This document shows, piece after piece, positions 7,301 to 55,134 of a stretch of 64,000 nucleotides of DNA (positions are counted from its first letter, which is position 1; each line of letters opens with the position of its first letter). The notes beneath the pieces were generated by a model. It ran no database searches, was not told where the DNA came from, and saw only the letters and a program-made list of their open reading frames with translations. Source of the DNA: Amoebophrya sp. A120 (lineage: Eukaryota; Protista; Dinoflagellata); assembly GCA_905178155.1 (NCBI GenBank), contig CAJINV010000004.1, positions 3,567,320 through 3,631,319 of the forward strand. Direction: 5' to 3'. Position numbers and translations under genes: made by a program.

Positions 7301-10300
7301 ACAGGGGAGATGTTGTACCGGAACCCGGTCTCGAAGCAACCCATCCTGAAAGCCTGCAACGCACCGAAGACCGGTATAGTGTTAAAGACGAAGGCGTTGC
7401 GACAAATTTTTACGTCGAGCAACATATATGTAGTCAATGAGTCCTTTCTTGGCGGCACAGTAGTACCTTGACCTGCAGCTTGACTTCGTAGTTCCTACAC
7501 GTTTCACTGTATCGTCGCGCCGGTGCGATTTTTGCTCTGTGATGTGAAGATTTATTTGTGCGTAATATGTTTTGTAGTTCCCTCCGTGTTGTGTATGAAA
7601 AATCTTATCCGTTCTTCATCCTTCTTGTTCTCCCCCCCAGGCGGCATCCTGTTTATCAACAAGGACGGGCACGTGTGCAGTGCCGGCGCCAGCGAGCAAG
7701 GCCTGGTGCCCTACATCTTCACCTCCGCCATTCCCAACAAGCAGGAGATCGGCATCAACCTCGCCAGGCGGTTCGGTTTCGCCGGCGCGGAGGAGATTCT
7801 CAACACGGCGTTCCAGAGGGACTTTGCCATGCAGAACTACAAGGAAGCCGCTACCACGGTCGCAAAAGCGAAAGCCCTACGGACCAGCGAAACCATTGAG
7901 AAATTCAGGGTATAGTTGTGTTTTTAAAGCTAGTTGTAGAGAATCACCGTCGAAGACTTTGGACGCACGTGAGGAGCAGAAAAGTTCTTTGCATTCGATA
8001 AAAATCATACCGCGAAAAAAACATTTTATCGTTCTCGTTTTCGTGCAAAAATCACAGAACGCGCCGCAGCCCGCGGGGCAGCCGCTGCCGCTGCTGACGT
8101 ATTTTTCTACCCTGCTCGACAAGGCGGGGAAGTTGAACAAATACGAGTCCGTGCAGCTGTGCCAGCTGGTCGTCCAGCAGGGGAGGCACGACCTCATCGA
8201 GAAGTGGCTTAACGCCGACCAGTTGGACTGCAGCGAGGAGTTGGGCGACGTCATCAAGCAACTCCCCGCGCTGAGTCAGCACGCGCTCAAAGTCTATTAC
8301 AAGGGCGAGGCGCACCAGAAAGTGATCAACAGCTTTATGGAAATGGGGCAGGTGGACAAAATCATCGAGTACGCGAAAAAGGTACGGAATTCCCTATAAT
8401 TTTCATCGTTCTGCCATTCGACAGTTGGTAGAAGTGGTGGTGTCTATCGGATAGTTAACGCGAAAAATGATTCTACAACTTTTTTCTCATATGATCTTCC
8501 TGATGCAGCAGCAGGAGGCTAAGTAGCCTGTAGGTGTAGCTAAATGGCACAGTTTTTATGCAATGAAAACCATCGCAAAAAATAAACATGGTAGTATTTG
8601 AACACTCGTCTCTCAACAACAGGCCAACGCCAAGGCGGACTACTCCGGGCTGATGCGAAACTTGGTGGCGGTGAACCCCCAGCAGGCGGTTGAGTTTGCG
8701 AAGAGTCTGATGAACAACGTGCCGCCGCTGACGGACATCCGGCAAATCATCGACACGTTTATGAGCCAGAACCGGCTGCAGGAAACCACGTCGGTGCTGA
8801 TCGATTATTTGAAGGAAAACAAGCCGGAGCACGCGGCGCTGCAGACGGAGCTGTTCCGCATGAACTTGCTCCAGGCGCCCCAGGCGGCGGAGTTGATCTT
8901 CCAGTTGGACACCTTCACCCACTACGACAAGCAGGTGGTCGCGCAGCTGTGCGAGAAGGCCGGATTGTGGAATCGGGCCCTGCTATCAAACGCAAAAATG
9001 TGTCGGCCCGGAAGGAGGCAAGGTTTGCCATGCACATTTTGCATGACTCATGATTTCTGTGATGCATGCCCCAGCATCACAGATTTTTTAAGAGCTTCTT
9101 GATGCTAATTACGCATGAGAAGTTATGCCCTCTCCGCGTGCCAAGAACTGACGCCTCTGGCTGCTCATGCAACACAGATACTTTTGGAATTCGCAAACAG
9201 CATTACAAATTGCATTCTTCCAGACCTAGACATATTTGCATTTGATACCTGCAGGACTACACGGACATCTCCGACGTGCGCCGCGTGTTGGCGTACGCGC
9301 CGACCATGAACGCGGAATTTCTCGTGAATTACTGCACGAAACTTCCCCCGCAGACGTGCCTGGAGGTGATGGGGGACCTTATGCATTGCAAAAGTATCGT
9401 ACTAGTATAAATCGCAATACAAATTTCCTTAGCTGCATTAGAAATGGAATTTGTAATGCGGATTTGCCTTAAGAAAAAGATTTGTAATGCATGACTGCGA
9501 TTACTACGAGTGCGATACTTTTGCACAGGATAGACCTGATGAAAAACCGACACCAGAACTTGAACGTGGTCGTGCAAGTGGCCATCAAGTTATAACAGTG
9601 CACAACTCCCCGTGTCCCTCATTTGTCATGCAAAATACCCAATCCGCCCTTTGCTTGTTGGCACAATTTGCATGACAAGTTCTGATAGCCCAAATAGCGC
9701 TATACTCCAGTGCAAGTCTGTCATGCAAAACCGGCATTCTTGCTGATGCTTGTATGGCCGTTCGTGCTATACAAATGAGGGGGAGGGGGAGTTGTGCGCT
9801 GTGATACAAGTGCCACCAGCAGATCGGCGCGGAGAAGCTCATCGAGATGTTTGAGTCGTATTACAATGAAAAATGCCCCCACCCCACACTTGGCAGCATT
9901 TGTAATTGTATTGCAAACCTTTCCAATAGAAACATTTCCCGTCTTGCATATCTCAGCATCACAAATTTTCCATGCTGAATAGCTCGAATTTGTGTTGCGA
10001 AGGGGCCCAACAGCAGCTGGATATGTTATGCACAAGGTACCTTGCGCACCTAGATTCTGCATCAGAAAGGCTCGCAATCCTTTCATGCAAGACAAAAAGC
10101 TTTCATTTGGAAACTTTGCATGACAATTCGGGGGTGGGGGCATTCTTCATTGTAATAAGTCGTTCTCCAGTTTCGAGGGCGTATTCTACTTTGTGGGCGC
10201 GATCTCCAGCCAGATGGGCGAGGGCCACCCGGAAGTGATCTTCAAGTACATTCAGGCGGCCTCCCGGTTGGGCAACGTGCAGGAGGTGGAGCGCGTGCTG

Positions 10301-13300
10301 AAGGAAAACCCCAAAAGTTACGACCCCGTGAAAGTAAAAGACTTCCTGAAAGGCGAAAAACTCCCCGACCCCCGACCCTTGATCTACGTCTGCGACCTAC
10401 ACGGCTTCATTGAGGAGCTGGCGACATACCTGTATAGTTTGTTTTTGATGTCCGAGTTTTTTTTATTTCCTGGACACAGCATAAAGGGTAAAAGATGAAG
10501 GACCACTTCTTGGGTTTTCAATATTTTCTCACGCGAGATCATGAACTTGTATGGTTATCAACCCAATATTAAACTACAGGTACAACAACCAATTACTGAA
10601 GTACATTGAAGTGTACGTGACGAAGGTAAACCCGTTGAACACCCCGAAGTTCGTCGGTACCCTGATCGACCTCGACTGCAGCGAAGATTTTATCAAGCAG
10701 TTGCTCCAGGCGGTTCGTTCCGCCTGTCCGGTGGAGCCGCTGGTGACGGAGTGCGAGAAGCGCAACCGGCTGCGGCTGTTGCAGCCCTGGCTGGAGGCTC
10801 GCGTCTCCGAGGGGAACCAGGAGGGCCCGTTGCACAACGCGCTGGCCATGATCTGCATCGAAACCGGGCGAGACCCGGAAACGTTCCTGAAGAACAACCA
10901 CTTCTACGACAGCAAGGTCGTCGGGAAGTTCTGCGAGGAACGGGACCCCCACCTCGCCTACACATGTTACAAGCGCGCCTTCGGGCAGTGCGACGAGGAG
11001 CTGGTGGCGGTCACGAACAAGTATCCTGAGCAAAAACGTCCCCACCCCATAGTCAAGTTGGTAAATCTGCAACACAAATCGCCAAGTTTTGGGAGTTGTG
11101 CATGACAAGTTTCCATCTGCAGCGTTGTACTGGTTAACAAGGGAAGCCGCATGAGAAAGCCATTTTGTCATGGTGTTTACAGCATTACAACAGATTTCAA
11201 AACACGATTGGAAATGCCTCTCATGGAGATGCGCATTACAGATGCTCCTGTCGTTGCGCATTTGCATGACAACTCTGGGGTAGAGGGGGGGGGCAAAGTG
11301 TGCTGCAATTCCTTTAGCATGACAACTCTGGGGTGGGGACGTTTTTACATAGGATAACAAAAACGGCCTGTTCAAGCTCCAGGCGAAATACCTGGTGGAG
11401 CGGAAATCCCCCGAGCTGTGGGCCACGGTGCTCGGGGAGGAGGCGAACCAAGAATTTCGGAGGAAAACCATCGACCAGACGATCAGCTCCGCGCTCCCGG
11501 AGTGCATATCAAATGTAAAAATGTCTGGGTCTGGAAGAATTCATGTTTGTCATGCTTGTCTTGCATGACTCTTAAATCTGTCATGCACGGTTCCCAAGAG
11601 CTCTGATTTTCTGTGATGCAGAAGCGCAGTTTGTCATGCAGAATAGGCAAAACCTAGGAGCTCAGAAACTTGTCATGCTGAGCCAGCATCTGTAGCCTCG
11701 TCATGAGACGCCACCCAGCATCACAAGTTTCCAGACCCAGACATTTTTGCAATCCATAGTGCACCAACCCGGACGAAGTGTCCGTCACCGTGAAGGCCTT
11801 CATCGCGGCGGAACTGTATCAACTGTAAAAATGTCTGGGTCTGGAAGGTTGGAACTTGTAATGCTAGCTCTACATTCCTGGGAAATCTGTATAGCATAAC
11901 GAACAAAAGTCGCAGCCTCTTTTGTCATGCAAAAACGCAGTTTCTTATGCGGATTGCCTACGAGAAAGCGTTTTGGGAAGTTGTCATGCCGGACTGCATT
12001 CGGAAGTGTTTTCATCATGCACATGTTAGCATCACAAGTTTCCAGACCCAGACATTTTTGCATTGGATAAACTGCACTCGGAGTTGATTGAGCTGCTGGA
12101 GAAGATCGTGCTCCACCGGTCCGAGTTCGCCAACGCACGAAACCTGCAGAATCTGCTGATCCTCACCGCGATCCGCGCCGACCCCACAAGGGTGATGGAC
12201 TACATCAACCGGCTGACCAGTTACAACGGCCCGGAGATCGCGAAAGTGGCGCTGGGTCCAGAGTACAAGCTGTACGAGGAGGCGTTTGTGATCTACAAGA
12301 AGGGCGAAATGCACCCGGAGGCCATGGACGTTTTGCTGTTGAACATTGACAGCATAGAACGGGCCGCGGAGTACGCCGCACGGGTGAACGAGCCGGTCGT
12401 GTGGAGCAAATTGGGAAAGGCGTACTTGGAGTCAGGTAGAGTGACTTGCATAATTTTCAAAGTGAGCTCAGCATGACAAAAATGATTTGTCATGCTGATT
12501 GATCTACTGTGCGAAGCCGATGATTTATACGCAAAATGAAATTATCAGGTGCCGTGGCCGAGGCCATCGACAGTTACATTAAGGCGAACGACGCTTCGGA
12601 CTACATGGAGGTGATATCCGTGGCGGAGAGGCAGAACAAATTCGAGGAGCTGGTGACGTTTCTGAAAATGGCCCGGAAATCGCAGAAGGACCAGCACCTG
12701 GATTCGGAGCTGGTGTACAGCTACGCGAAGATCGACAATTTGGCGGACTTGGAGGAGTTCGTGTCCGGCACCAACACCGCCAACTGCCAGATGATCGGCG
12801 ACCGGTTGTACGACGAGGGCAACTACAAGGCGGCCAAGCTGCTCTTCCAGTCGATTGGCAACAACGCGAAGCTCGCGTCCTGCTACGTCAAGCTGGAGGA
12901 ATACAACGCCGCGGTTGAAGCGGCCAAGAAGGCGAACAATCCGAAGGTGTGGAAGGAGGTCTCCGTCGCCTGCGTCGCCGCGCAGGAGTTCCGATGCGCC
13001 AGTATCGCCGGCATGAGCATCATTGTGCACCCCGACCATTTGGAGGAATTAATCGCCCAGTACGAGAAGCACGGGTATTTCGAGGAGCTGATCCAGCTGC
13101 TGGACCAGGGGCTCTCCGCGGAGCGGGCGCACGTCGGGATGTACACGGAGTTGGCGATTCTGTACAGCAAGTACAAGCCGGAGAGGCTGATGGACTTCAT
13201 CAAGATGAACACGCAGAAGTGCAACATCCCGAAGGTGATCCGGGCCTGCGAGCGCCACTGCCACTGGGAGGAGGCGGTGCATTTATACACGCACTACGAC

Positions 13301-15261
13301 GAGTACGACAGCGCGGCCAACTGCATGATGCAGCACTCCCCCGTGGCCTTTTCCCACGACCAGTTTCTCTTCGTCATGCAGAAAGTCGCGAACACGGAAC
13401 TCCTGTACCGGGCCATCAGCTTTTACATCGAGGAGCAACCCCTGCTATTGGACGCGTTGCTGAAAACCATTGAGAGCAAGGTGATATTATAATTGCAATA
13501 CTGCATGACAATAAACGTCGCGTGTCCATTATACACTACAAAATTCCTTTCAGCTTGCCGCAATCTGCGGAAAAATGCGACTCATCGACTCGGGCCGCGC
13601 TATGAGAAGTACAAGAACTCTTGTACACTACTGCATAACCACCTAAAACTCAACTCAACTCTCAGGTCGACCACGCGCGCGTGGTGCAGCAGATGCGGGA
13701 CATGGGACACCTTCCCCTGATCCTGCCCTACCTGAAGCAGGTCCAGGTGCACAACATTCAGGCGGTAAACGAGGCCTTGAACGAGCTTTACCTGGAAGCC
13801 GAAGACCACAGCAACCTGCGAAAATCGATCGAGGAATACGTATCCTGTGCAAAAGTATCGTACTCGTGGCAATTGCAGTCATGCATTACTAATCTCCTTT
13901 CCAAGGTAAAACAGCATGACAAATTCAATTTTTCATGCTGAGAAAATTTGTAATGCAATATATACTAGTGCGATGCTTTTGCAATGCATAATACGAAAAC
14001 ATTGACCAACTCTCGCTCGCGGGAAAGCTGGAAAAGCACGAGCTGCTGGAGATGCGCCGAATCGCCTCCTTGGTGTACATATGGATTGCAAAAATGTCTG
14101 GGTCTGGGAGATTGCAACTTGTCATGCTAAATCCGAATAATGCGGAAATCTGTGTTGCATGAGGGCCAAATAAAGCTGTCCACTTTCGACCAAGTTGGGA
14201 GGGAGTTTCTCATGCAGGATAACATAGCAGAGACCTCAGAGCCTCTGTCATGCTAGGTCCCGCATTCCAGACCTCATGGGTCATGAAAAACCTGCATGAC
14301 AAGTTTAACACTCTTCCAGACCCAGACATTTTTGCATTTGATAGGACAAGAAAAACAAGAGGTACGGGAAGGCCATCGAACTGTCGAAAAACGACAAGAT
14401 TTTCCAGGACGCTATCCTAAGCAAAAACGTCCCCACCCCATCGTCAAGTTGGGAATCTAGCAACACAAATTTCCAAGTTTTGGGAGCCGTGCATGACAAC
14501 TTTCCCTCTGCAGTGTAGTGCTGATTGGCAAGAGAGGCCGCATAAGAAAGTTATTTTCACTTCGTGTTTACAGCATTACAAATTCCAAAACACGATTGGA
14601 ATTTCCTCTCATGGTGCTGCGCATGACAAATGTTTCTCTCATTTCACATTTGCATGACAACTCTGGTGGGGGGACGTTTTTACTTAGGATAGACGCCATG
14701 GAAACCGCGCGGGACAGCGGGAGCAGCGACCTCGCGCTGGAGCTGCTGCAGTACTTCATTCAGGAGCAAGACAAGGAGTGCTTCACGGCGTGCTTGTTCA
14801 CCTGTTACGCCTTGTTGAAGCCAGATGTGGTGATGGAGCTCGCGTGGCGCAACAACATGATGAACTCCGCCATGCCGTACCTGATTCAGTCCGTGAAGCA
14901 GTACACGGCGAGAATAGACGGGCTGGACAAAAAAGTGGAGAAGGAGGAAAAGGAGAAGGAACAGCAAAAATCCGCGAACAACGACTACGTGGCGGATTAC
15001 GGTATGATATGTGGAGACTTGTTTTTTTTTCAAGCTTGGTTGATATCAAAGTCAAAAAGTATAAAACACTATTGATACTACCAAGACCTATAATGGTTTA
15101 GTACCTGTTCCTTCTCTATCGCAGGTATGGGTCCTGCTGGGATGATGCCCGGGTTCGGCCACTTGGCAATCGGAAACGCACCCTTCCAGCCCGCAGCCAA
15201 TGGCATGATGGGCATGGGCGGCCCACCGATGGGAGGTCCCGGGAGTATGGGCGGCTTTTGA
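4334..15261 (+). CDS. CHC: Clathrin heavy chain, about 27 exons (15 introner introns + 11 GT-AG introns)
   Basis: N-terminus [17 protein letters not shown]; DCSEELGD; [12 protein letters not shown]; [12 protein letters not shown]; [14 protein letters not shown]; [13 protein letters not shown]; [11 protein letters not shown]; [19 protein letters not shown]; [11 protein letters not shown]. Reading frame is continuous after intron removal; stop TGA 15259-15261. Confidence 0.97.
4477..4757. mobile_element. Introner family C
   Basis: TIR TATCCT..GTAAAAACGTCCCCACCCCATA; DR CAGGT/CAGGT. Confidence 0.93.
5059..5323. mobile_element. Introner family A
   Basis: TIR TGCAAA.ATGTCTGGGTCTGGAA; DR CAACC/CAACC. 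Confidence 0.93.
5723..5934. mobile_element. Introner family F
   Basis: TATCCAGGAAAAAAAGTGTGTAAGTGTAA...TTACACTTACACAGTTTTTCTCTTGCATA; DR ACGGG/ACGGG. Confidence 0.9.
6649..6908. mobile_element. Introner family A
   Basis: Family A TIRs; DR GATCC/GATCC. Confidence 0.93.
6959..7227. mobile_element. Introner family A
   Basis: Family A TIRs; DR GCACA/GCACA; only 50 nt from the previous copy. Confidence 0.93.
8984..9247. mobile_element. Introner family A (subfamily shared with 37572, opposite orientation)
   Basis: DR CCTGC/CCTGC. Confidence 0.9.
9380..9532. mobile_element. Introner family D
   Basis: TIR TGCAAAAGTATCG(T/C)ACT; DR GACCT/GACCT. Confidence 0.9.
9591..9806. mobile_element. Introner family E
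   Basis: TIR TAT.ACAG.GCACAACTCCCC; DR CAAGT/CAAGT. Confidence 0.9.
9859..10157. mobile_element. Introner, family C-related
   Basis: TIR TATTACAATGAA.AATGCCCCCACCCC; DR AGTCG/AGTCG. Confidence 0.92.
11022..11356. mobile_element. Introner family C
   Basis: Family C TIRs; DR ACAAG/ACAAA. Confidence 0.9.
11507..11758. mobile_element. Introner family A
   Basis: DR GTGCA/GTGCA. Confidence 0.92.
11817..12069. mobile_element. Introner family A
   Basis: DR AACTG/AACTG. Confidence 0.92.
13841..13990. mobile_element. Introner family D (inverted relative to 9380)
   Basis: Starts TATCCTGTGCAAAAG, ends TTTTGCAATGCATA; DR ATACG/ATACG. Confidence 0.9.
14080..14343. mobile_element. Introner family A
   Basis: DR GTACA/GGACA. 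Confidence 0.92.
14413..14691. mobile_element. Introner family C
   Basis: DR GACGC/GACGC. Confidence 0.92.
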
Positions 15262-42282: not shown

Positions 42283-43579
42283 ATGGGGAATGCGTGTGGA
42301 TGCGAGCCAGCCCCTGGGGCGAAGGATGTGAAGGCCACGGGGGAGATGAAGACGGTGACAAAAGTGTTGGAAGACGGATCCACTTACAAGGGGGAAACCA
42401 AGGATGGCATCGTCCGACACGGCAAGGGAACCTACACATACCCAGACGGCAAGACCAGCTACGAAGGCGACTGGATCGACGGCAAGGCACATGGGGTCGG
42501 CACCTTTAAGGACGGGGAGTCGGAGTATTCTCAAATTTGAAAATTGTTGTACTTATGTGCTCTTCGGTATTACTAGAATCTACCTGTCAAGAGTATATTT
42601 TTGGGACGCCTAGTGGTCCAACATTTACATTGCTGGCATTCGTATTCCGCTCGACCCGCAGGTACGTCGGACAGTGGGAGGACGACTTCAAGCACGGGCA
42701 GGGCACGGAGACCTGGGTGAACGACGGCAGCTCCTTCGTGGGGCAGTACAAGTACGGGAAGAAGGAGGGCCACGGCAAGTACACCTGGCACGACGGCAGC
42801 TACTACGAGGGCGCGTTTGTGGCCGACAACATCGAGGGGAACGGCACCTACTACTCCCATTCCTGCACCTTCACCGGCGCCTTCAAGGACAACGTCAAGC
42901 AGTATTCATTTTACATACTTGACCCTTTAGCTTTTCATTTTTTTTTCACCAAATGCATTTGCATTCCATTTAGCTACTTCGCATGGATAGGATTTTTTTA
43001 TCTTTATTAAAAAGCAAAAAAAGCAAAATCCATCTGGCTTCTAGAGTCTTGTGGGGTCAGAAGCAGGATCATGTTGATGGTGCAAAGCCTTGCAGGGGAC
43101 GAGAGATTTCGTAAAAGAACAGCACTTCAGACTAATCATAGGACGGTCAAGATGTTGATCCTTGTCCGATGCAACAGTTCCTGTGTATAAAGCGCCGCAT
43201 AGTAAAAATTTGAATTTTGTATTCTAGTAAGTTTGCCACCCTGAAGTAGATCACGCTAGACCTCACCCTGTATAGACCGCTGCCTCCGATGAAGGAGGAC
43301 TTTATCAAAACGTACGGATTCGTAAATCGAAAAGAATGAACAATCCTGATCAACAAAAACTGCAGTGGCTACGGACGGTACGAGTGGTCGGATGGCAAAG
43401 TGTACGAAGGCTACTTTTTCAAGGATCGCAAGCACGGCACGGGCACCATGACCTGGCCAGACGGTTACGCCTACATTGGACCCTGGGAGGAGGGAGTCCA
43501 GCACGGCAAGGGAGTGATCAAGGAGCCCGATGGCACCGAGGAAAAGTGCGAGTTCGAGCGCGGCACGCAGATCGCATAA
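42283..43579 (+). CDS. MORN-repeat protein, 3 exons
   Basis: Multiple YxGxWxxGxxHGxG repeats; MGNACGC acylation-like N-terminus; GT-AG introns 42525-42661 and 42902-43365. Confidence 0.9.
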
Positions 43580-45685: not shown

Positions 45686-46904
45686 ATGGTGCGTTTGCTC
45701 CGCGGGACCAGCGCTGCTGTCGCTTCTCTGCTGCTTGTTGTTGTTCCGGTGTTCCTGCAACATCTGTCGTTGCCTGTTGTAAAGGCTGTGCAGCTGCGAG
45801 CAGCGAGTTCTTCTGCATCTGCAGGTGCAGGGTCGTCTGCTTCTGGCCTCAGCGCTGGCCGCCAGTCCGCCGCACCGGGGAACAGGTTACGCACCAGTCT
45901 CAGGAGTCGAGGCGGAGTTGTCCCCGGCGGCAACGGGGACCAAGCGCGGGAGGTTCAGATAGCAAATGGGGGAAGATCTCGTTCACAAGACCAGCCCGCT
46001 GGGGGAGGACACCGGCAGAACGGGAACCAAGCTGCACAGTTTCGACCGCGCGCGGTTCAGGACGGTGGTGACCCTCCGTCCTGTCCCTACCTCTGGCCGA
46101 TCGAGAAGGAAGTTGCAGAGGTATCCAGAGTAAAAACGCCACCCACGACGCCCCATAGTCAAAGTGGGGATGTTGCTACACAGACGCGGCCCCATAGTCA
46201 ATGTTGCTACACAGTATATTAAGCAAGGTTAGGCAATTCTTGCACAGGACAAGTTTGGATTCGCGACGTAGTCGTTGTTTAGCTAGTGCGGCCGTGATGT
46301 CTCAAATCGATCACACAATCCTGATTCTAGCATGTCACGTTCCGAAACAACAGTAGAAAATGCCCCTCGCGGGGCTGCGCATGAGAGATATCCTGAGCGT
46401 GCAAAAAGATATCTGGGGTGAGGACGTTTTTTCTCAGGATAAGAGGCAAAGGAAGCTATTCGTGTTTGCGAGGCTCGCGCGGCTGAATGGAGAGAGGAAT
46501 GCCGCTCATCTGTCCAGTCCTCAGGCGAAATTTTCGTGGGAGGTTGTGTCGCAGGGCTGAGCTGTTTAGCCGCCGGTGCCTGTTTGGGGCCGGGGGCGGC
46601 AGCCGCGGCAGGAGTGGCCGCGCCGGCCGTTGTCGGCGCCTCCAGCTGCGCTTCTGCGAGGTTTGCTTTCGATGCTGCGGATGCGTTCCTGGGCGTGGCT
46701 CGTATGGAACAAAAGGCGCATGCTTGTCGTCGATGGCTAGGTATTTTAGAAGCCGACCTTGCGCGCGCGAAGCGGCAAGTGCGTGACTACCCGTACCTGG
46801 GTCGACTAACGGAAGCGGGGGCTGTTCAGGAGAGGGAAAGGCAACGAAGCGAAAGGAGAAGGGCTGTGATTCGAAGCTTACGTCGAAACGTGCCGAACAA
46901 CTAG
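45686..46904 (+). CDS. Hypothetical secreted/membrane protein
   Basis: Signal-like N-terminus; ORFs 45686 and 46536 join in frame after removal of introner 46122-46441 plus one DR. Confidence 0.65.
46122..46441. mobile_element. Introner family C
   Basis: DR AGAGG/AGAGG; small internal duplication of CCCATAGTCAA..ATGTTGCTACACAG. Confidence 0.85.
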
Positions 46905-47851
46905 ACTATATGTAAAACCCAGTTACAAACGCACGTCTAGTTTCGCAGTAGTCTTACTGTCTTCTCCATGACCACTCAAAAAAAATTTCTGATAAAAAGA
47001 AAAAAGTACGCCGTTAATTTGTATTTTTACACTCTGGCTTTGTCGTCCCACGCGGACGCGAAGGCGACCAGCAGGGAAAAGGATCCTTTTCCGCGGAAGG
47101 TCTCCCGGTGATGTAGGGCAAGTCCTGAAGAGGACAAAGAAACCGCGGCGGAGGAAACGAAGAGCAGTCTCCTAGCCATTTCCAATCCTGTTGTTAGGAG
47201 CTCCTCATCAGATCCTTTATTATCGATTTCTACAGTTCTCTGTTCGCTCCGGCTACAGTGACCTACTCAAACTTCAGTTTTGATTTTGCATTGCAATGTA
47301 AAAAAAAAGTTTATTGATTTTTGATTGTGCTTATCATAGTGTTGTTAAATGCTACAACGGCCTATTTTTTCCTCTATGAAGGGTTGACTTTTGTTACGTG
47401 GGAGCAAGGCTAGCAAGTACAACGGCAAAAAAGAGGCACACTGTAGCTGTTTTGACGAAAAGTGGTACTATCAATTGCACTCCAATTGATTTTTTGGCAA
47501 GAATTCGTATTAAATCACATGAGCAGGTCGCTCATAGTACATACATTCATACTTCTGCTCATACCGACAACAGGGGAAGTGTGCTCGCCCGCCCGAAAGC
47601 CGTTCGGGCGCCCAGGGCGTCATGGAAGGCCCCACACAGTGGTACCGCCGGGACAAGTAAGACTTGTTAGCAGCTCCCAACATTTGCTGTACGCGCCGGG
47701 TATGAACCTTCACTATTCACACTGGCCACTTACCCAAGGTGTCTGGAAAATGCAAATGCCGCGCCCTCCCATAGGCCGGCCAAGATGCCTCAATCCGTAG
47801 AGGTGTCTTGAAAAACCTAACCTCAGTAGTTTTGTTTGCAAGGTCCGTAAA

Positions 47852-47921
47852 AAAATAACGACCTCGACTGAGGGGAAGCCAGCGACAGCGGGGACGACGC
47901 AAGATGTTCTGAAATCTGACA
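47852..47921 (+). repeat. Direct repeat copy 1 of 3
   Basis: Core TCGACTGAGGGGAAGCCAGCGACAGCGGGGACGACGCAAGATGTTCTGAAATC identical at 47864-47916, 49789-49841 and 50841-50893. Confidence 0.95.
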
Positions 47922-47951
47922 ACTGCTAGGAAAAGCCGTACCTCGGCGAAG

Positions 47952-48563
47952 ATGTTGGCTGCTTGCCGTTTAGCAGCGGACCCGGCTTCTTTAGCACAGT
48001 GCGTGCAATTTCTCGGGTCGATGACTTCTCTGTCATCGGGGTCGACGACGGCTTCGCAGATCCTGAAATACGCGAGGATAGTGAGGGCTAGCGGTGGGGA
48101 GCCGTGGCCGGTCACCTTTCGGCATCTAGAGAACTTTATCGCGGTCTGTTTGACGACCGCCTACAAAACGTTCGACGATGATGTGAGCCTGGTCTTGAAA
48201 ACAGCCAGGAAGCGGGGGGAAGTATCGCTGAACGAAGTCGAAGAAAGTTTTGTGTGGTCCCTCCTTGCGAGTTTGCGACGGAAGGGAGTTTTCAACCACA
48301 CCCAGAAAGCCCCGCTATTCCGCTCGAATATTATGAAACTGGTCAACGCTGTCGACCGGGCACAGCTTTTGCTGGTTTTCCTTTTTGGGCTTCGCAAATC
48401 GGAGGCCCAGGAAGTCAACAAGAGCATCCGGATCCTTTGGGGCGTCAAGTCGATCGGGCTTGACTTGCGGGGTGCTGTGCTGAAAAGCAACAGCGTGCAG
48501 GCAATTCGGGTGCGTTGCACCTGCGAGAAGGGTAAAGTAGTGCTCTCCATCATTTCTCAGTAG
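47952..48563 (+). pseudogene. N-terminal half of a tyrosine recombinase (DIRS/Ngaro/Crypton-like)
   Basis: Box I-like LLLVFLFGLRKSEA, preceded by a helical core-binding-like region and followed by RCTC. HxxR and catalytic Tyr are absent. Confidence 0.6.
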
Positions 48564-48580
48564 AACTCTTTTCGACCATC

Positions 48581-49354
48581 ATGCCCGGGGATAATGAAAT
48601 TGTGCCTGCTCCGGCGGCAGCGGGGGAGCAGATCGATGGGGAGATTTTAGCGGGCTTCGCTCGGGTCATCAACAAAGTTGTCAAGACGGCCGATGAGGAG
48701 AACAAGGATGTGGGGATGGTTCTTTTGCAAAAAGGCCTCTGCACTGATGCGCTGGCCGGGGCTGAAAAGTTCGCGGCTTTGGTGAAGCTGGTCCGCCGCC
48801 GGGGTTGCGGCTCGTTTACGGCGAAAGAGCTGAAGGACGCTGTTCAGCTGGCCGCCGCGATTTTAGTTGTGGCGAAGAAAAAGATCGCCTTCGCCAACAG
48901 CTGGGGTTTGGGCTTGTTCATCCGGTTCTCGGGTTCCCCCCACGCTATCGCCGATCTGAATAAGTCCATCAAGGAGTTAAACTCCTTGGTGGTTGAAAAC
49001 GAGTACGAAGAGGAGGACGCCGCAGCCGCGGCGGACGAAGATACTATCGAGGAGTGTGCTCTTCGCTGCTGGACTTACTTATCTACTTGCTTGTTTAAGG
49101 ACATGGAGACCCTGCAAAACGCCCGGGGCGGGGATGGCAAGGACAAACGTGACGCGGGTTTGAAACGTTTCAAACCCTCTGGGAGTGGGATTTGTTTGCA
49201 GTTTCTCAAGGAGGGGACTTGCCGCTTCGGCTCCTCTTGTAAATTCAACCACAACCCCCCCGAGTCGGTGGACGCGATCCGCAAACATTGCGAAAAAATG
49301 GGCTGGGGGAATGTCGACGCCGCGGCGGCGTGGAAAATCCATAGTAAGAAGTAG
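48581..49354 (+). CDS. Gag-like protein with C-terminal CCCH zinc finger
   Basis: CLQFLKEGTCRFGSSCKFNH (C-x8-C-x5-C-x3-H); adjacent to the recombinase fragment, as in YR retroelements. Confidence 0.6.
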   Translation: MPGDNEIVPAPAAAGEQIDGEILAGFARVINKVVKTADEENKDVGMVLLQKGLCTDALAGAEKFAALVKLVRRRGCGSFTAKELKDAVQLAAAILVVAKKKIAFANSWGLGLFIRFSGSPHAIADLNKSIKELNSLVVENEYEEEDAAAAADEDTIEECALRCWTYLSTCLFKDMETLQNARGGDGKDKRDAGLKRFKPSGSGICLQFLKEGTCRFGSSCKFNHNPPESVDAIRKHCEKMGWGNVDAAAAWKIHSKK

Positions 49355-49776
49355 AGGGGGGTTTAGTTGTTACCGTAGCGTGTCCGCCCGTACACACCCG
49401 ACCGGGGCCGGGGGTCGCCCCTTTCCCAGGGACGCTGTGGATTTCTGTTTGTAGGACCTACTACTCTACTTGGTGCGATATAGATTTTTCTTTGCGTTCC
49501 GTCACCTTGGGTTCCGCCTAATGGCTCGATGTTCGATATTTGCGTTTGGGTTAGGTCGTCGCGTCGCACCTCTCCGTGGGGGCGGGCTTGGTTTTCCCAA
49601 ATTCAGCTCCAGTCTCGTCTGAACTGGGCGGGTTCTTTGGGATCGTCGTTGCGTGGCGTCTCCTGTGGGGTTAGCCCACCACTTGTTGTTGGGTGCTTGC
49701 AGACCTCCTTACCGAGAGGAGATCAACACCGAAGACGATCATCCAAAGTTGATCCACCTGTTGCTACTTGTGTCAT

Positions 49777-49841
49777 AAAATAACGACCTCGACTGAGGGG
49801 AAGCCAGCGACAGCGGGGACGACGCAAGATGTTCTGAAATC
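49777..49841 (+). repeat. Direct repeat copy 2 of 3
   Basis: 65 bp identical to 47852-47916. Confidence 0.95.
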
Positions 49842-50925
49842 ACTCGTACTGGCGATCGTGCTCCGCCGCCTCCGCCGCGGCAACGGCGAGCGCCGTGTTG
49901 CGGTCCCGGAGGAGGCGGAGAATTTCCGAGATCGTTTGCCGCCTGTCCCGAAGAAGCTCCTGGTCGAGCTGAGATAGTGTTTGTTGTTCTTGAACACCTC
50001 CGGCCGAATTTGTACTGCTAACGCTTGACCGCCCGGCTGTTCCTGCAGTTCCAGACCCCGCAGGAGCTACTGCCCAGGGGTTTTTCTGTCCTTTCGCGAA
50101 AGAGACCACACCGGCGTGGATCTCATTCAAGGAATCGACCACTTGGTCCAAGTGCTGTGCATCGGAGGACCCTCGCTCAAGAACATCTCCCGGTGCGGCC
50201 TGGTTAGCGGCGCTGGCTCGGAGGCCCTTGTCAGAGGCGATGGAGGTTTTGGAAAGCGTGGAACTACCGGGAGCAATGGCGGCAGCGGGCAGCTGGCCAG
50301 TAGCTTGCTCCTCAGGTGGTCTTTCTGCTTTCTCCGCACCAGTGTCCTGTAGTTGTTCCTCCTCATCTTCCTCCGGAAGAGCGGGCATAAGGCTGATCGG
50401 CTGCTTCATACTCATATTACCTCCCATCATCTCCGAAGAACTACCGGGACCACCACCGTCGAAGGCGGAGGATGGAAACGGGTTGGCCGCCGACAGTGGA
50501 ACTCCTGCCATCATGTTGCCGTAATCGTCCAACATATTACCGTGGTCGTGGATCTCGAACTTCTGTTGCTGTAAGCGAAACGCGTCTAACGTCAGTGGGG
50601 AAGAAACGTCCGAAAAGTGGTATTTCGCGTCCAATGCATTCCGGAAGCACCGCAGCGCCTGCTGGCCCTGCTGCATGGTTTTCATGCGCTTTTTCCACAG
50701 ATTCTTGTCCCGGTCCGAAAACAAGCCCTCGACTTTGGTATCTTTCGACCAAGGAGCATGCTCGTCAGCGCAGGACTTGTAGTTCAGAGGATACCCAGTC
50801 GCAACATTATTCAGCTCGTCGACTTCCGCCTGCTTCAAATTCGACTGAGGGGAAGCCAGCGACAGCGGGGACGACGCAAGATGTTCTGAAATCTGACACA
50901 CTGTGGTGCCTGCACCACCATGCAC
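49840..50925 (-). CDS. Uninterrupted ORF fragment filling the second repeat-bounded cassette (unknown, possibly gag-like)
   Basis: 361-aa open frame; its stop codon is formed at the junction with repeat copy 2 and its N-terminus runs through repeat copy 3. Confidence 0.45.
   Translation of the reverse strand: MHGGAGTTVCQISEHLASSPLSLASPQSNLKQAEVDELNNVATGYPLNYKSCADEHAPWSKDTKVEGLFSDRDKNLWKKRMKTMQQGQQALRCFRNALDAKYHFSDVSSPLTLDAFRLQQQKFEIHDHGNMLDDYGNMMAGVPLSAANPFPSSAFDGGGPGSSSEMMGGNMSMKQPISLMPALPEEDEEEQLQDTGAEKAERPPEEQATGQLPAAAIAPGSSTLSKTSIASDKGLRASAANQAAPGDVLERGSSDAQHLDQVVDSLNEIHAGVVSFAKGQKNPWAVAPAGSGTAGTAGRSSVSSTNSAGGVQEQQTLSQLDQELLRDRRQTISEILRLLRDRNTALAVAAAEAAEHDRQYE
50841..50898 (+). repeat. 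Direct repeat copy 3 of 3
   Basis: 58 bp identical to 47864-47921. Confidence 0.95.
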
Positions 50926-52278
50926 AAGAGATCCCTACCGTGGTGTCTTCCGTTGTAGATCATCTTCCCTTTTTGCGTCTCCCGCGGAAGTTCGTCCCTC
51001 CCCGACCTGGAGCTCGTCCGTTGTAGATCGTCCCTCCCGCGTTTCTTCGTCATTCCCCGACCTGGAGCTCGTCAATACGCCGTACCAGCGACGCAGGGGG
51101 TGCTGCGGCAGATCACCGTGGACCCCGGGAAACGCCGGCCGCTACCGCGAGCTGGAACCCCCGACGGCAGGACAGGACGCGGCACCACAGTGTCGTCCTG
51201 CACCCCCCCCGCGATGATGTCAGGTCCCATTCCGGTGATCCTGGGGGGGCAACTGGGTAAGCGCCTGGGGGCACGAGAGGACCGCTGGAAAGAAACCACA
51301 CCACAGTCTCCCTTAGCCGAGGGTGGTATACTGCCAAAAAGAAATAGGCCTGTGCTCTCCTTTAAGAAGACAGCTTTCAACAACGTCTTTATGCCTGAGC
51401 AATCTTTTGGTACAAAAAAGCTTGACTATAGCCCTATTCGGAAGTTCCCTGCTCTTCGTGAGCAACTTGTTAAGACGAGCCGAACTGTGACATGGCCAAA
51501 GATCTTGTGTGTTCATCACGGTCCTGCCACGACTAGGATAAAGAAACCCTGAAGATGAATACACAATGTGAAAGAACCAACTGAGAGGCAATCGGTGCAC
51601 ATCGACCCCCACGCATTTTTGTACCTACCGTACACATCTTCACAGCAGGCACGATGAAGTCCACCAGGAGCTTCATTTCTTGAGAGTAAAGTACAACTTT
51701 TCGTTCCTTCTACTGCAGATTGTGGAGTAGTACATCACGAAATCCTTGAGCGATAGGTATCTAATTAGGCAGCGCTGGAGAGGTTTTGTTTTCCTGAGAG
51801 CATGAGCATGGCGGTCGGCGGTCGCTTATGGTCTTCTGTATCGAACCGGAAGATTTTTGCCCCGGAGAAAGGAAGAGCGCACCATCGAGGGCTTAAGTAG
51901 TCACTGTGACTTTTCGAGAGGTTTTCGTGAAGCGCATCGGAACTGAACGTGCTAAAGAAGTTGTACCCCTGAAAAGCACCAGCCACCGTAGTACTGATAG
52001 ATTTCAATGGCTCTTGCTGCACTCTCTTCAGTACACAACGATATCGATAAATACACTTCGTGGGTCTGTCAAAACTTCCACACTACGACAGGGCATCAAC
52101 ATCATCGTATTGACATAATTATTCGTGTGAAATAAATCGAGCGTCCCGATAGAAATCATGGGCCCGAGATTCCAATGGAATATTCCGCCAAAACTACCCC
52201 TCTTTCTAGAAAGACCACTTCTAAATGAAATTAAAATGTAGGGTACTTTTTTTTTTGACAACATAATGGTTTGAAGCG

Positions 52279-55134
52279 ATGGTTTTGGAGGAGGCTCTAT
52301 CCTGCGTAAAAACGTCTTCACCCCAGAGTAAAGATGCGAGGAACTCTGCGTACAAAAATCAACAAGTTTTGGCTGATGTTGCGCATGACAAGTTTGGGCT
52401 CGTCGTAGGGCAAGAGTCCGATGTTTAACCAGAATCGATCAGCTCATCCTGATTTTAGCATGACAAACTCACTCCCGGGCAACATCAGAATACGGAGCTT
52501 CCCATGGGGCTGCGTATGAGAAACGTCTCTAGGATTGCAGATTTGCATGACAAATTCGGGGTGGGGAGGTTTTTGCTCGGGATACGCTTTTATTCAGAAG
52601 TGCCGCGAGGCCTTCAACACATTCGATGCCGAGTATGACAAGAAAACAGAGCGTCAGGGTCAAAGACATCAAGAAGTAATTGCATCATATGTACGTTCTG
52701 CTTCTGTTGATGTTGTGTATCAGGAAATTGTACGCTTCGTGCTAGGACGTGGACGAGGAATAGTGAATGCACATCAACTCCTGCCTGCATGTTGTCCTGA
52801 TCCTGACGTATTTGCAATGCATAAAGCTGGGTCGGGGACTATCGACACACAAGGTACTACAGACGGCTGCTTTTTTTTTTTCTTTTCGTGCCCTGGAGAA
52901 CGAAGTTCTTGCAGTAAACGTAAAGTTTGCATGGTTACCACGGTCTGTTTCTAGAATGAAGAAAATCGAAATACCGCTAAACAGAGATGAAGCTTCTGCT
53001 GGAGTCAATTGGCGAGTCACTCACAGAAGAGGAGTATCTCACAGAAGATTTTTACCAGTAGCGTAGCACAAACTTTTTGTCATGCGTAAAAAAAGGAAAA
53101 GCATGATTGGGTCATTTTGCGCAAGACAGGTATGGTTTGGTTGAAACAAATTTCGTGTTCGATCATAATGGGCAAAAATGTAATCATGGTGGTAAGCTAT
53201 ATTTCGTTTTCGACACTAGACGCATGACAACAGAAGTGTGCTATGCTAGTAGCGGTTTTTGTTGGTATACGGAGCTCTTTCGGTTTATGGCGGACGTCGA
53301 CGAGGACGGGACAGGAGAAATTGGTACAGTCACTAGAGTTTTATATATTCTTGTACATGGAAATCTTTCCAGCACTCACAGGTTCAGTTGTGTTTGTGAT
53401 GCAAAACAGTTGATCGAAAACCAAATCCAAATCGTCTTCAGTGTTGATTGATCACAAACCATGGCAACACCACACAGAATTTGCGGAATTCCTGCGAGCA
53501 TTCGAGAAGCAGAGGGGATATGAAATGCAAATAGGTCGGCGGGGTCTGGAAGATTGCAAGACTTGTCATGCTTCGCTGATAAGACTAAGAGTCAAAAGCC
53601 TGCTGTCATGAGCGTCGCGAGACAGTGCCCTATGCTTGTCGGGTAACTAGTACAGTGCGATGATCTGATGTCATGCGCTTTTCACAAGTAGACGTAAAGT
53701 TGCCCAAGAACTTGTCATGTATGGCTCCCTGCTGTTGGGACTCCAGTCGGCCTCGCTGCCATTACACATCAGCATCACAAGAACTTTCCAGACCTCCCAG
53801 ACACACTTGCGTTTGATAAGGGAGTCAATGTAGCGATTGAGGACGAATTGGACACAATTGACGCGTTCGTGGCACTCGGTATAGCTGCAATTCTTATAAT
53901 CATCCTTGTGCATAGTAGGTGGAACTGAACAAAGGAGAAATGGAGGGTGAAGATAAATGAAAAATTTTTGATGCTGGTGCTGACGCGTTGTATAAATACA
54001 CAAGTTGTACTTGTAGCATCTGCTACTTTTGTGTTCATCTTCATGCATGCATGATCGATGCTGTGGGCAATATCGGTATTTTGTACTAGCTTGAAAAATA
54101 AATGAACTCTCCAGGCGGAAACGAGGACAAGTCTGGGTTCGTCGAGCAGAAGAGGCTTATCAAATGTAAAAATGTCTGGGTCTGGAAGAATGCAACTTGT
54201 CATGCAGGTTTTTCATGACAATCGAGGTCTGGAATGCGGGACCTAGCATGACAGAGTCTGAGACGTCTCTGCCATGCCTATCCTGCATGAGAAACTTCCT
54301 CCAAACTTGGTCGAAACTGGACAGCTTTTGGCACTCGTGCAACACAGATTTCTGCATGATTCGATTTTAGCATGACAAGTTGCATTCTTCCAGACCCAGA
54401 CATTTTTACATTTGATAAGGCTGGTGGCCGTCGTAAAAGAGGAGTTCGGTATGACCATCAATACGCGGGAAAAAAACTGTGTCAATCTCAATGTTTTTGA
54501 TGACCGTTCCGCAACACAAATCACACTGTCGCATAGTTAGTGGAAATATGCCTGTGAAGATGTTGTTGCGTCATGATTCATGTGTACAGCTAAGCAGGGG
54601 AAATAAAAAGCACCACCACCTGAATGGGCCGAGCTTGTTGTCGAGCATGATAAAAAAATGTATCAAGGAACAACTTCCGCAGTGCAAGTTGAGACTGATT
54701 TGCAGTTTTTTCCCTGCGATAGTCCAAATCGACCGATTAGTGGACGAGCTCGACAAGGATGGGGACGGAAAACTGTCTATCCTCAGTAAAGATACCCCTC
54801 CACCCCAGACTTGTCATGCAAATCTGGATGCCTAGATGTAATGCGAATGTAGTTTCTCATGCGCAGCACCACAAGGAGCATTTTCTTTTTCAGGTTGTGT
54901 TTTGGATTTTGTCATGTCATCATTGGGACAAGGCGGTCGATTTGTAATTCGACTGCACAACTCTCTAGATACGATTACACTTCGAAGTCAACAAGCCTGG
55001 TGTTATGCGCAACGTACAAAGCTTGGTGGTTTGTATAGCAAAATCCCCATTATCCACTTGAGTCTAGAAGGGTCGTGGGGAGGTTTTTTCTCAGGATGCT
55101 GGCCTACGACGAATTTGCGGCACTGTTTATCTAA
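52279..55134 (+). CDS. EF-hand calcium-binding protein, outer-arm dynein light chain 4 (18 kDa)-like; 11 exons
   Basis: Reconstructed: CREAFNTFDADGSGTID..EMKLLLESIGESLTEEELFRFMADVDEDGTGEIEFAEFL..DTIDAFVALGGNEDKSGFVEQKRLVAVVKEEFGMTIKIDRLVDELDKDGDGKLSYDEFAALFI*. 7 introners + 3 GT-AG introns; not visible in the ORF track. Confidence 0.85.
52298..52584. mobile_element. Introner family C
   Basis: DR GGCTC/CGCTT. Confidence 0.82.
52634..52823. mobile_element. Degenerate family A-like introner
   Basis: Ends TTTGCAATGCATA; DR fully eroded, but a 195-nt removal restores EF-hand 1. Confidence 0.6.
53035..53269. mobile_element. Degenerate introner
   Basis: TAT...ATA, imperfect IR; DR AGGAG/CGGAG. 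Confidence 0.7.
53519..53818. mobile_element. Introner family A (diverged)
   Basis: DR GGGGA/AGGGA. Confidence 0.8.
54158..54417. mobile_element. Introner family A (inverted relative to 6649), perfect 48-bp TIR
   Basis: DR AGGCT/AGGCT. Confidence 0.95.
54462..54721. mobile_element. Introner, family F-like
   Basis: GGGAAAAAA(A)CTG/CAGTTTTTTCCC IR; DR ATCAA/GTCCA. Confidence 0.72.
54778..55098. mobile_element. Introner family C (diverged)
   Basis: DR CTGTC/CTGGC; right end ATG. Confidence 0.75.

What the first reader, a model, noticed from the sequence alone, without database searches (positions are those of the whole stretch)
47852..50898. Repeat-cassette-repeat-cassette-repeat array holding kb-sized fragments of mobile-element-like ORFs
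Seen: three identical copies of a 53-bp core (47864, 49789, 50841) separate a roughly 1.86-kb unit (tyrosine recombinase half + CCCH gag-like ORF, + strand) and a 1.0-kb unit (- strand). The second unit is one open frame from edge to edge, with its stop created at the repeat junction. The recombinase frame is also open right up to repeat 1. Repeat ends are staggered: copy 1 is the 70-bp union, copy 2 its first 65 bp, copy 3 its last 58 bp. That does not fit simple serial TSDs or LTRs. Inference: a fragment-capture locus (loosely integron/CRISPR-like or a small-RNA trap), or iterative template switching during repair or reverse transcription. Perfect identity implies recent origin.
Basis: partly seen in the sequence, partly recalled or inferred. 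Interest (0 to 1): 0.8.

Follow-up and report, generated by a model that had tools for sequence, protein, structure and literature searches.

The report
Mobile-DNA debris between nested duplications
Two broken pieces of mobile-type DNA sit between three identical copies of a 53-70-base stretch in what is likely an Amoebophrya (marine parasite) genome, and the layout is likely the scar of a one-off copying or repair accident that re-copied that stretch twice rather than a cassette-capturing array, although one piece belongs to a recombinase-plus-zinc-finger gene pair not found in the papers searched.

Summary
The repeats and both units are real. The stagger is not anomalous: 70 = 12+53+5 is what a 70-bp duplication around unit 1 plus a 53-bp duplication around unit 2, inside it, gives. 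Unit 1 is a tyrosine recombinase lacking its last ~95 residues, followed by a CCCH protein; Amoebophrya relatives keep the full catalytic set and the same recombinase-then-CCCH order, so the pair is native, not assembled here. Unit 2 is a cut copy of a two-copy coding sequence under purifying selection. The repeat has no palindrome or hairpin, ragged ends, and no other flank was seen in read contigs. No reverse transcriptase, no A1-B1A2B2 layout. Best reading: one-off template-switching insertions with long target duplications (0.42), or an in-place rearrangement with copied filler (0.28). Against the first: neither unit has an identical donor. Capture array about 0.06. The scan noted similar long-duplication inserts elsewhere in this genome (e1-10627074, unchecked).

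The parts
47570..47851 (.). Left part of a GC-rich island (56% GC against 43% in the host flank); has diverged relatives
   Evidence: a DNA-run contig matches 47828-47865 and its loose ends resemble 47794-47823 and 47866-47895 (21/30 and 18/30 by eye); reads of another strain match 47751-47782
47852..47921 (+). Repeat copy 1, 70 bp (12 + 53 core + 5); likely the original, since a diverged relative is colinear across its left edge
47922..48540 (+). Tyrosine recombinase, N-terminal two thirds (frame 47913-48563); keeps GLRKSE and LKSN, lacks HxxR, H/W and Y
   Evidence: fold match of a relative's N-domain to Cre, Z 7.2, low-confidence model
48581..49354 (+). Intact 257-aa ORF with a C-terminal CCCH finger; homologous over its length to the protein that follows the recombinase in Amoebophrya relatives; 'gag-like' is by position and finger only
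   Evidence: Pfam PF00642 E 1.3e-7; 27% identity, E 5e-22 to P0004
49355..49776 (.). Segment after the CCCH gene; relatives exist and one runs on without the exact repeat after a shared AAAAT
   Evidence: loose ends at 49732/49765 (X1) and 49667/49700 (X3)
49777..49841 (+). Repeat copy 2, first 65 bp of copy 1
49842..50840 (-). Unit 2: 999-bp piece of a coding sequence, cut at its 3' end by repeat 2, no in-frame Met before 50685; one other genomic copy
   Evidence: no database homologue
50841..50898 (+). Repeat copy 3, last 58 bp of copy 1
50899..51330 (.). Right part of the GC-rich island (63% GC); covered by RNA-like contigs up to 51364-51421; 51186-51291 has relatives; three minus-strand ATGs in one open frame

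Best explanation
Three identical copies of one short tract bracket two broken gene pieces, and they were likely made when DNA synthesis at this one site left it, copied a kilobase piece of mobile-type DNA or cDNA, and came back 53-70 bases behind its exit, twice. Shown: the nested geometry (70-bp duplication around unit 1, 53-bp duplication around unit 2 inside its right-hand copy); both units are cut pieces of longer sequences; short matches at both ends of unit 1 (TGACA plus an imperfect ACTG on the left, AAAAT on the right). Inferred: the tract is the target site, the site before insertion read left island - repeat - right island, and the jumps were guided by those short matches, during break repair or LINE-type priming (unit 1 is in sense orientation and its duplication starts in an A run). 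Because two independent duplications would not nest by chance, it was likely one two-jump event or two hits on one persistently broken site. The recombinase in unit 1 is cargo, and the repeat is not its recombination site. Together with the in-place variant (rival 1), 'one-off template switching, no capture system' has about 0.7.
For: Geometry. Unit 1 recombinase truncated against P0001-P0003 and against a relative in the same DNA run. Unit 2's second copy runs on past 49843 with non-repeat letters in an open frame. Repeat has no self-inverted word over 4 letters and folds like shuffles, z -0.26 to 0.28 for four repeat contexts. Contig breaks fall exactly at repeat edges, no joints listed, no foreign flank on the core in the rows shown; depth arithmetic fits 2-3 core copies and not 4 or more (depth is only a rough guide). 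Chance nesting of two independent events about 6e-4 per 64 kb. Known analogues: 'cycles' of templated insertions that re-replicate the host segment (PMC7025897, passages); long TSDs and 5' microhomology in LINE inserts (PMC4245944, abstract and passages).
Against: No identical donor: unit 1 is one unbranched 1915-nt contig at single-copy depth (42.2), and unit 2's other copy is up to about 10% diverged in blocks, while the repeats differ at 0 of 123 sites (95% bound 2.4%). The recombinase's conserved N-terminal patch begins 3 bases after repeat 1, where P0001 has its start, which suggests repeat 1 may natively precede the recombinase. Three ATGs of the right flank fall in frame with unit 2 if only the 53-bp core is left out (1 in 3 by chance). 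No poly(A) tail. No empty allele seen. No second long-duplication insert in this window. Microhomology could be judged at only 2 of 4 unit junctions.
Confidence: 0.42

Rival explanations
1. In-place rearrangement with copied filler. The whole 3.75-kb GC-rich island is the remnant of one composite mobile region: repeat 1 natively precedes the recombinase, the right island is the promoter and start of the unit-2 gene, and copies 2 and 3 are filler copied from repeat 1 during template jumps (repair or faulty reverse transcription), copy 2 at a large deletion and copy 3 as a frameshifting 53-bp insert.
For: Needs no distant donors, and none identical exists. Conserved recombinase start abuts repeat 1. 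All three minus-strand ATGs in 50894-51100 are open and in frame with unit 2 without the core. Every part of the island is GC-rich and most have diverged relatives. RNA-like run X5 covers unit 2 and the right flank at similar depth (17, 22) and unit 1 lower (3.5-6.4) (contig depth, weak).
Against: Needs two jumps to the same 70-bp tract 2-3 kb away. Unit 2's relative is much closer (270 identical bases) than the recombinase's (107 of about 620 bases laid at 80%), so the two have different histories. No relative of 50871-51040 was laid at 80%. The relatives' 49-50-aa N-terminal extension is not detectable in the left island or repeat 1 (best local placement ranked 1260 of 127,702). The same right-flank frame also reads 68 codons on into the core and left island.
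Confidence: 0.28
2. Native architecture. The repeat is a real repeat of an undescribed tyrosine-recombinase element (recombinase and CCCH gene on one strand, a further ORF on the other, as with the inverted recombinase of Kangaroo), and this is an internally deleted copy.
For: Recombinase-CCCH order is shared with Amoebophrya relatives. The relative of the segment before repeat 2 continues with AAAAT and, a few bases on, GACC, which could be a diverged repeat; only 30 letters were visible. Inverted recombinases and internal repeats next to the recombinase are known in PAT-group elements (PMC4157794, passages).
Against: One repeat in three overlapping copies, with the union copy at an end in both possible contig orders, is not A1-B1A2B2 (PMC8547959, PMC6681497 passages). 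Unit 2's relative runs through the position of repeat 2 as open coding sequence. No RT/RNase H by Pfam in 18 flank frames or the ORFs.
Confidence: 0.13
3. Capture array. The tract is a fixed attachment site at which a recombinase or reverse transcriptase acting in trans adds kilobase fragments one after another, as an integron or CRISPR array does, perhaps as a small-RNA trap.
For: Repeat-unit-repeat-unit-repeat layout, identical repeats, both events at one site; RNA-like contigs cover the whole array (RNA status is a guess).
Against: Crossover points differ by 12 and 5 bases between events; no dyad or hairpin; no other flank or array seen; units are broken genes; the local recombinase is dead; no exact core match in viral contigs.
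Confidence: 0.06
4. Assembly artefact: the array is a chimera of separate loci joined through the repeat.
For: No contig bridges a whole repeat; the order unit 2 - unit 1 is equally compatible with the 31-letter contig graph. The best DNA run may be the source of the window.
Against: All six junctions are in contigs at the depth of the unique flanks (39-46 in X1), and each unit has the repeat at both ends, so any path keeps both units at this locus unless one is a free circle at chromosomal depth.
Confidence: 0.04

Closest known systems
Cycles of templated insertions (Li et al. 2020, PMC7025897, passages) and FoSTeS/MMBIR complex insertions (PMC5120786, passages)
   Same: Foreign pieces strung into one locus, return to the departure chromosome with re-copying of a host segment, short microhomologies.
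   Different: There the templates remain elsewhere as copy-number gains; here no identical donor was seen. Here the path returns to the same tract twice. Germ-line protist DNA, not tumour or patient DNA.
LINE insertions with long target-site duplication, L-TSD over 20 bp (PMC4245944, abstract and passages)
   Same: Long duplication, microhomology at the 5' junction, A-rich start of the duplication for unit 1.
   Different: No LINE sequence, no poly(A) tail; unit 2 is cut at its 3' end; two nested events.
Split-direct-repeat YR retrotransposons: Ngaro (PMC8547959), PAT/Kangaroo (PMC4157794), VIPER/TATE (PMC6681497); passages read
   Same: Tyrosine recombinase next to a zinc-finger ORF, short direct repeats, deleted and tandem copies are common.
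   Different: No RT/RNase H found, recombinase lies upstream of the finger ORF, one repeat in three copies instead of A1-B1A2B2, finger is CCCH rather than the CCHC box described for VIPER.
Amoebophrya recombinase-CCCH pair (P0001-P0005; AT5.2 g7586/g7585 in supplement file 2 of PMC6482013)
   Same: 54-56% identical recombinase, homologous CCCH protein, same order in transcript ORF P0005.
   Different: Relatives keep R-K-HxxR-H/W-Y and about 130 codons between HLRW and the CCCH start; the window copy has lost that stretch.
Cryptons (PMC13465315, passages)
   Same: Eukaryotic tyrosine recombinase with an optional second gene, no RT seen.
   Different: Crypton direct repeats are 4-6 bp; these are 53-70 bp.

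Membership tests
Ngaro/PAT/VIPER split-direct-repeat retrotransposons | Tyrosine recombinase ORF | tested here: met
   Truncated here; full motif set in P0001-P0003; weak Pfam PF00589 (E 0.027-0.2); Cre N-domain fold Z 7.2, rmsd 3.4, 89 aligned, low-confidence model
Ngaro/PAT/VIPER split-direct-repeat retrotransposons | A1 ... B1 A2 B2 repeat layout | tested here: not met
   One tract in three overlapping copies; no second repeat pair in 46900-52000
Ngaro/PAT/VIPER split-direct-repeat retrotransposons | RT and RNase H in the element | tested here: inconclusive
   No Pfam hit in the ORFs or in 18 flank frames read through stops; a deleted copy may have lost them, and relatives' neighbours were seen only for their first 400 aa
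Ngaro/PAT/VIPER split-direct-repeat retrotransposons | Gag-like ORF1 upstream of the recombinase | tested here: not met
   The CCCH ORF is downstream of the recombinase here and in P0005
Integron-like cassette array | Catalytically complete integrase at the array | tested here: not met
   HxxR, H/W and Y missing
Integron-like cassette array | Palindromic, hairpin-forming site with a fixed crossover (feature recalled, no call) | tested here: not met
   Longest self-inverted word 4; z about 0; ends differ by 12 and 5 bp
Integron-like cassette array | Different cassette sets between strains or loci | not testable with these tools
CRISPR-like array | Constant repeat and near-constant spacer length (feature recalled, no call) | tested here: not met
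   Repeats 70/65/58, units 1855/999
Crypton | 4-6 bp direct repeats around a recombinase gene | tested here: not met
   Repeats are 53-70 bp (definition)
Cycle of templated insertions / long target duplication | Path returns and re-copies a segment of the host site | tested here: met
   Nested 70/53 geometry
Cycle of templated insertions / long target duplication | Microhomology at junctions | tested here: inconclusive
   Present at both unit-1 junctions (5 bp each); unknown at both unit-2 junctions
Cycle of templated insertions / long target duplication | Template still present elsewhere as an identical copy | tested here: not met
   Unit 1 single-copy; unit 2's other copy diverged in blocks
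Cycle of templated insertions / long target duplication | Empty allele with one copy of the tract | not testable with these tools
   No joint listed (96 rows hidden) or 18 (none); no DNA of another strain
Amoebophrya introner | 8-20 nt terminal inverted repeats, 3-5 nt direct repeats, removed from RNA | tested here: not met
   No terminal inverted repeats on the units; RNA-like contigs run through unspliced; definition from PMC7789003 passages

The most novel reading that the evidence does not exclude
An undescribed Amoebophrya recombinase family, encoded with a CCCH RNA-binding partner and no reverse transcriptase beside it, targets this tract in trans and adds kilobase fragments of mobile-element genes one at a time, building a transcribed eukaryotic integron-like or silencing array of which this is a young two-cassette stage.
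Probability: 0.06. Interest if true: 0.85.

Novelty: new member of a known kind. Interest (0 to 1): 0.27.

Why it matters
As read here it is an example of a known kind of scar, useful mainly because two events share one site and the junction letters are readable. The more lasting lead is the cargo: an Amoebophrya tyrosine-recombinase gene natively followed by a CCCH gene, an order unlike the gag-first order of the described YR retrotransposons; four paper searches (listings, plus passages of PMC12130899 and PMC7789003) showed no description of it. If strain comparison showed polarised gain of units at the repeat, it would be a eukaryotic capture array, which would be very surprising.

Tried and rejected
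No whole genome held. Unit 2: no homologue by word search or by phmmer over 1.84 billion representatives, none in Pfam, NCBIfam, PHROGs. CCCH ORF: no hit by word search; its homologue P0004 came through cluster membership. Idea that the CCCH ORF is a diverged recombinase C-terminal half: rejected (hhalign probability 0.2). Idea that the left island and repeat 1 encode the relatives' N-terminal extension: a by-eye register was not significant. A 29-nt GT..AG stretch at 48532-48560 would fuse the two frames, but no joint was listed. A 13-bp inverted pair 50898-50910/51181-51193 is not spliced in X3 contigs. A 7-bp match at the island edges (47580, 51351) also occurs at 49055 and is within chance. 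No tRNA or Rfam family. Scans for related loci were empty: metagenome contigs, viral contigs, prokaryote genomes. PDB sequence search: one hit at E 0.15, uninformative. Both structure models were low-confidence (pLDDT 44 and 43); only the recombinase model was searched. Atlas features of P0004: unnamed eukaryotic clusters at 0.92-0.93, no family. No listed holder run is on record as RNA. Raw RNA run X8, which differs from the window at fixed sites, shows no cover from 47840 to 53851, including the neighbouring host gene, so the blank says nothing. Earlier-finding look-ups by sequence and near place were empty. Supplements of PMC6482013: file 2 held cut with sequences trimmed at 400 aa, file 4 cut before g7584, files S1 and S2 too large; the unseen parts may show an RT beside the AT5.2 pair.
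Full report
Observation. The 53-bp core occurs at 47864, 49789 and 50841; copies 1 and 2 share 12 more bases on the left, copies 1 and 3 share 5 more on the right. The units are 1855 and 999 bp. These are the longest of 23 exact direct-repeat pairs of 20 bp or more within 0.1-6 kb in the window. Contigs of public runs break exactly where the repeats begin and end: 47892-49806, 50671-50870 and 50869-53571 in DNA-like run X1, 47246-47881 in X3, 49812-50893 in X5. So all six junctions exist. No contig bridges a whole repeat, so the order unit 2 - unit 1 is equally compatible with these contigs. Table 8 showed 16 of 43 pieces.

Setting. The window is eukaryotic, with introns and many dispersed inverted-repeat families. 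The closest named homologues are Amoebophrya proteins, and earlier notes assign the genome to that genus (unchecked). The array lies in a GC-rich island, about 47570-51330 (53-63% GC by part, host flanks 43% and 47%), between a spliced + strand gene on the left and an intron-rich gene on the right.

Geometry. Write the tract as x (12) c (53) y (5). The copies are xcy, xc and cy. A 70-bp duplication around unit 1, followed by a 53-bp duplication around unit 2 within the right-hand copy, gives exactly this. But two independent duplications would nest by chance only about 6e-4 per 64 kb, so it was one multi-jump event or one site hit twice.

Unit 1. The + frame 47913-48563 is 54-56% identical to three proteins. 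These keep GLRKSE, LKSN, HS[LF]R, H[IL]RW and YY; the window copy has only the first two and departs from them at about 48540. A diverged recombinase contig in X1 also continues past that point. A low-confidence model of P0002 matches the Cre N-domain best (Z 7.2, rmsd 3.4, 89 aligned; the tool notes that Z under 8 can be a common arrangement), with Ndc10, integron integrase and Xer lower in the list. The second ORF (48581-49354) has a CCCH finger and is homologous to P0004 (27%, E 5e-22). P0005, a transcript-derived ORF, holds the recombinase followed after 131 residues by P0004, and in AT5.2 the two are consecutive gene numbers (strand and distance not seen). P0004 is letter-identical in the two Amoebophrya sources, so they count as one lineage. 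The order recombinase-CCCH is thus native, and the window copy has an internal deletion of roughly 0.4-0.6 kb (inferred). No RT or RNase H was found in the locus.

Unit 2. No database homologue. One other copy is present in X1 and X3, identical over 270 bases and about 10% diverged in other blocks; its ten listed gaps group into frame-preserving changes. Of the 40 substitutions shown (21 more hidden), single-change codons in the unit-2 frame are 16 synonymous and 5 not, and 12 and 1 in the gap-free block 50554-50665; the other two minus frames give 3 and 0 synonymous. So it is a real coding sequence. The other copy runs on past 49843 in an open frame without the repeat, and upstream of 50797 with different letters. 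The stop at the junction is thus a cut, not a design. Whether it is a host gene or an element ORF is not known.

The repeat. It has no self-inverted word over 4 letters and folds no better than shuffles. It is no tRNA or Rfam RNA. A diverged X1 contig is colinear with the left island and the first 44 bases of copy 1 (21/30 and 18/30 by eye around a laid stretch), so copy 1's left edge is original and the left edges of copies 2 and 3 are derived. That contig does not show what followed the core. None of the 11 loose-end rows shown (3 hidden) puts a foreign flank on the exact core, no joint was listed, and bin depth fits 2-3 core copies against 39-46 for unique DNA and not 4 or more (depth is a rough guide and the run may be the window's source). 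The sequences right of copies 1 and 3 share TGACA and, after a one-base gap, ACTG. A relative of the segment before copy 2 shares AAAAT with the start of the tract. These are the short matches expected of template switches.

Mechanism. Best (0.42): the tract is a target site; synthesis left it, copied unit 1, returned 65-70 bases back, left again, copied unit 2 in the other orientation, and returned 53 bases back. This is the 'cycle' class of PMC7025897 (passages); LINE-type priming with a long duplication is a variant (PMC4245944). An earlier, unchecked note reports the same kind of insert elsewhere in this genome; it moved me from reading the repeat as a native element piece to this model, and my check in this window found no second case. 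Against it: no identical donor for either unit; the recombinase's conserved start sits 3 bases from copy 1; and the right flank's three minus-strand ATGs are in frame with unit 2 if the core is left out. These points feed rival 1 (0.28), an in-place rearrangement with filler copied from copy 1. Against rival 1: two jumps to the same distant tract, unequal divergence of the parts from their relatives, and no trace of the relatives' N-terminal extension upstream. Both are one-off template switching. A native three-repeat element (0.13) is not excluded because only 30 letters of the key relative were visible. A capture array (0.06) lacks a fixed crossover, a structured site, an active enzyme and further arrays. 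A chimera (0.04) could at most change the order.

Transcription. Runs X3 and X5 are guessed to be RNA and show spliced host genes; they cover the island up to 51364-51421 and not 51514-51847. Contigs give neither strand nor level, so this shows presence only.

Comparison and novelty. The locus fails the split-repeat layout and ORF order of Ngaro, PAT and VIPER (passages of PMC8547959, PMC4157794, PMC6681497, PMC3783388), the short repeats of Cryptons (PMC13465315 passages) and the introner pattern (PMC7789003 passages). Integron and CRISPR features are recalled, not from a call. It works like an insertion with long target duplication, with the donor criterion not met. The recombinase-CCCH pair was not described in what four searches returned (listings only, except passages of PMC12130899, where the recombinase mention concerns Crypton introners in general, and of PMC7789003, which has no occurrence of 'DIRS' or 'recombinase'). 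The library lacks most subscription papers and Repbase was not available, so this is weak. Verdict: real, new member of a known kind of rearrangement, interest 0.27.

Noticed in passing
P0001-P0005; window 47922-49354: Amoebophrya carries intact tyrosine recombinases natively followed by a CCCH protein; no RT was seen beside them. Could be a permuted or tandem YR retrotransposon, a Crypton-like DNA element or a domesticated pair.
   Followed up: partly
window 49842-50840 and its second genomic copy: The two copies form a mosaic of fully identical blocks (270 bases) and blocks about 10% diverged, as from gene conversion or recombination between copies.
   Followed up: partly
window 48532-48560: A 29-nt GT..AG stretch at the recombinase break would join the recombinase and CCCH frames if spliced; no such joint was seen in contigs.
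   Followed up: partly
window 47751-47782: About 400 RNA reads of another strain share this 32-base stretch and resemble the sequence before it: an expressed relative of the left island.
   Followed up: partly
window 51186-51291: Shared with other contigs in X1, X3 and X5, one of them at high depth in X3: a dispersed repeat at the right edge of the island.
   Followed up: no
window 50933-51073: Short imperfect tandem sub-repeats (32 and 40 nt, spacing 68 and 55) right of repeat 3.
   Followed up: no
window 47590-47610: A small GC hairpin with an 8-bp stem at the left edge of the island; region folds no better than shuffles overall.
   Followed up: partly
window 1900-60650, e.g. 54153-54422: Many dispersed inverted-repeat elements; those at 53031-53270, 53515-53819 and 54153-54417 are skipped in RNA-like contigs with non-GT-AG ends, as published for Amoebophrya introners.
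   Followed up: no
window 7599-15075: Exons that read like a clathrin heavy chain (recalled resemblance, no call), interrupted by such elements; MORN-repeat exons near 42510-43010.
   Followed up: no
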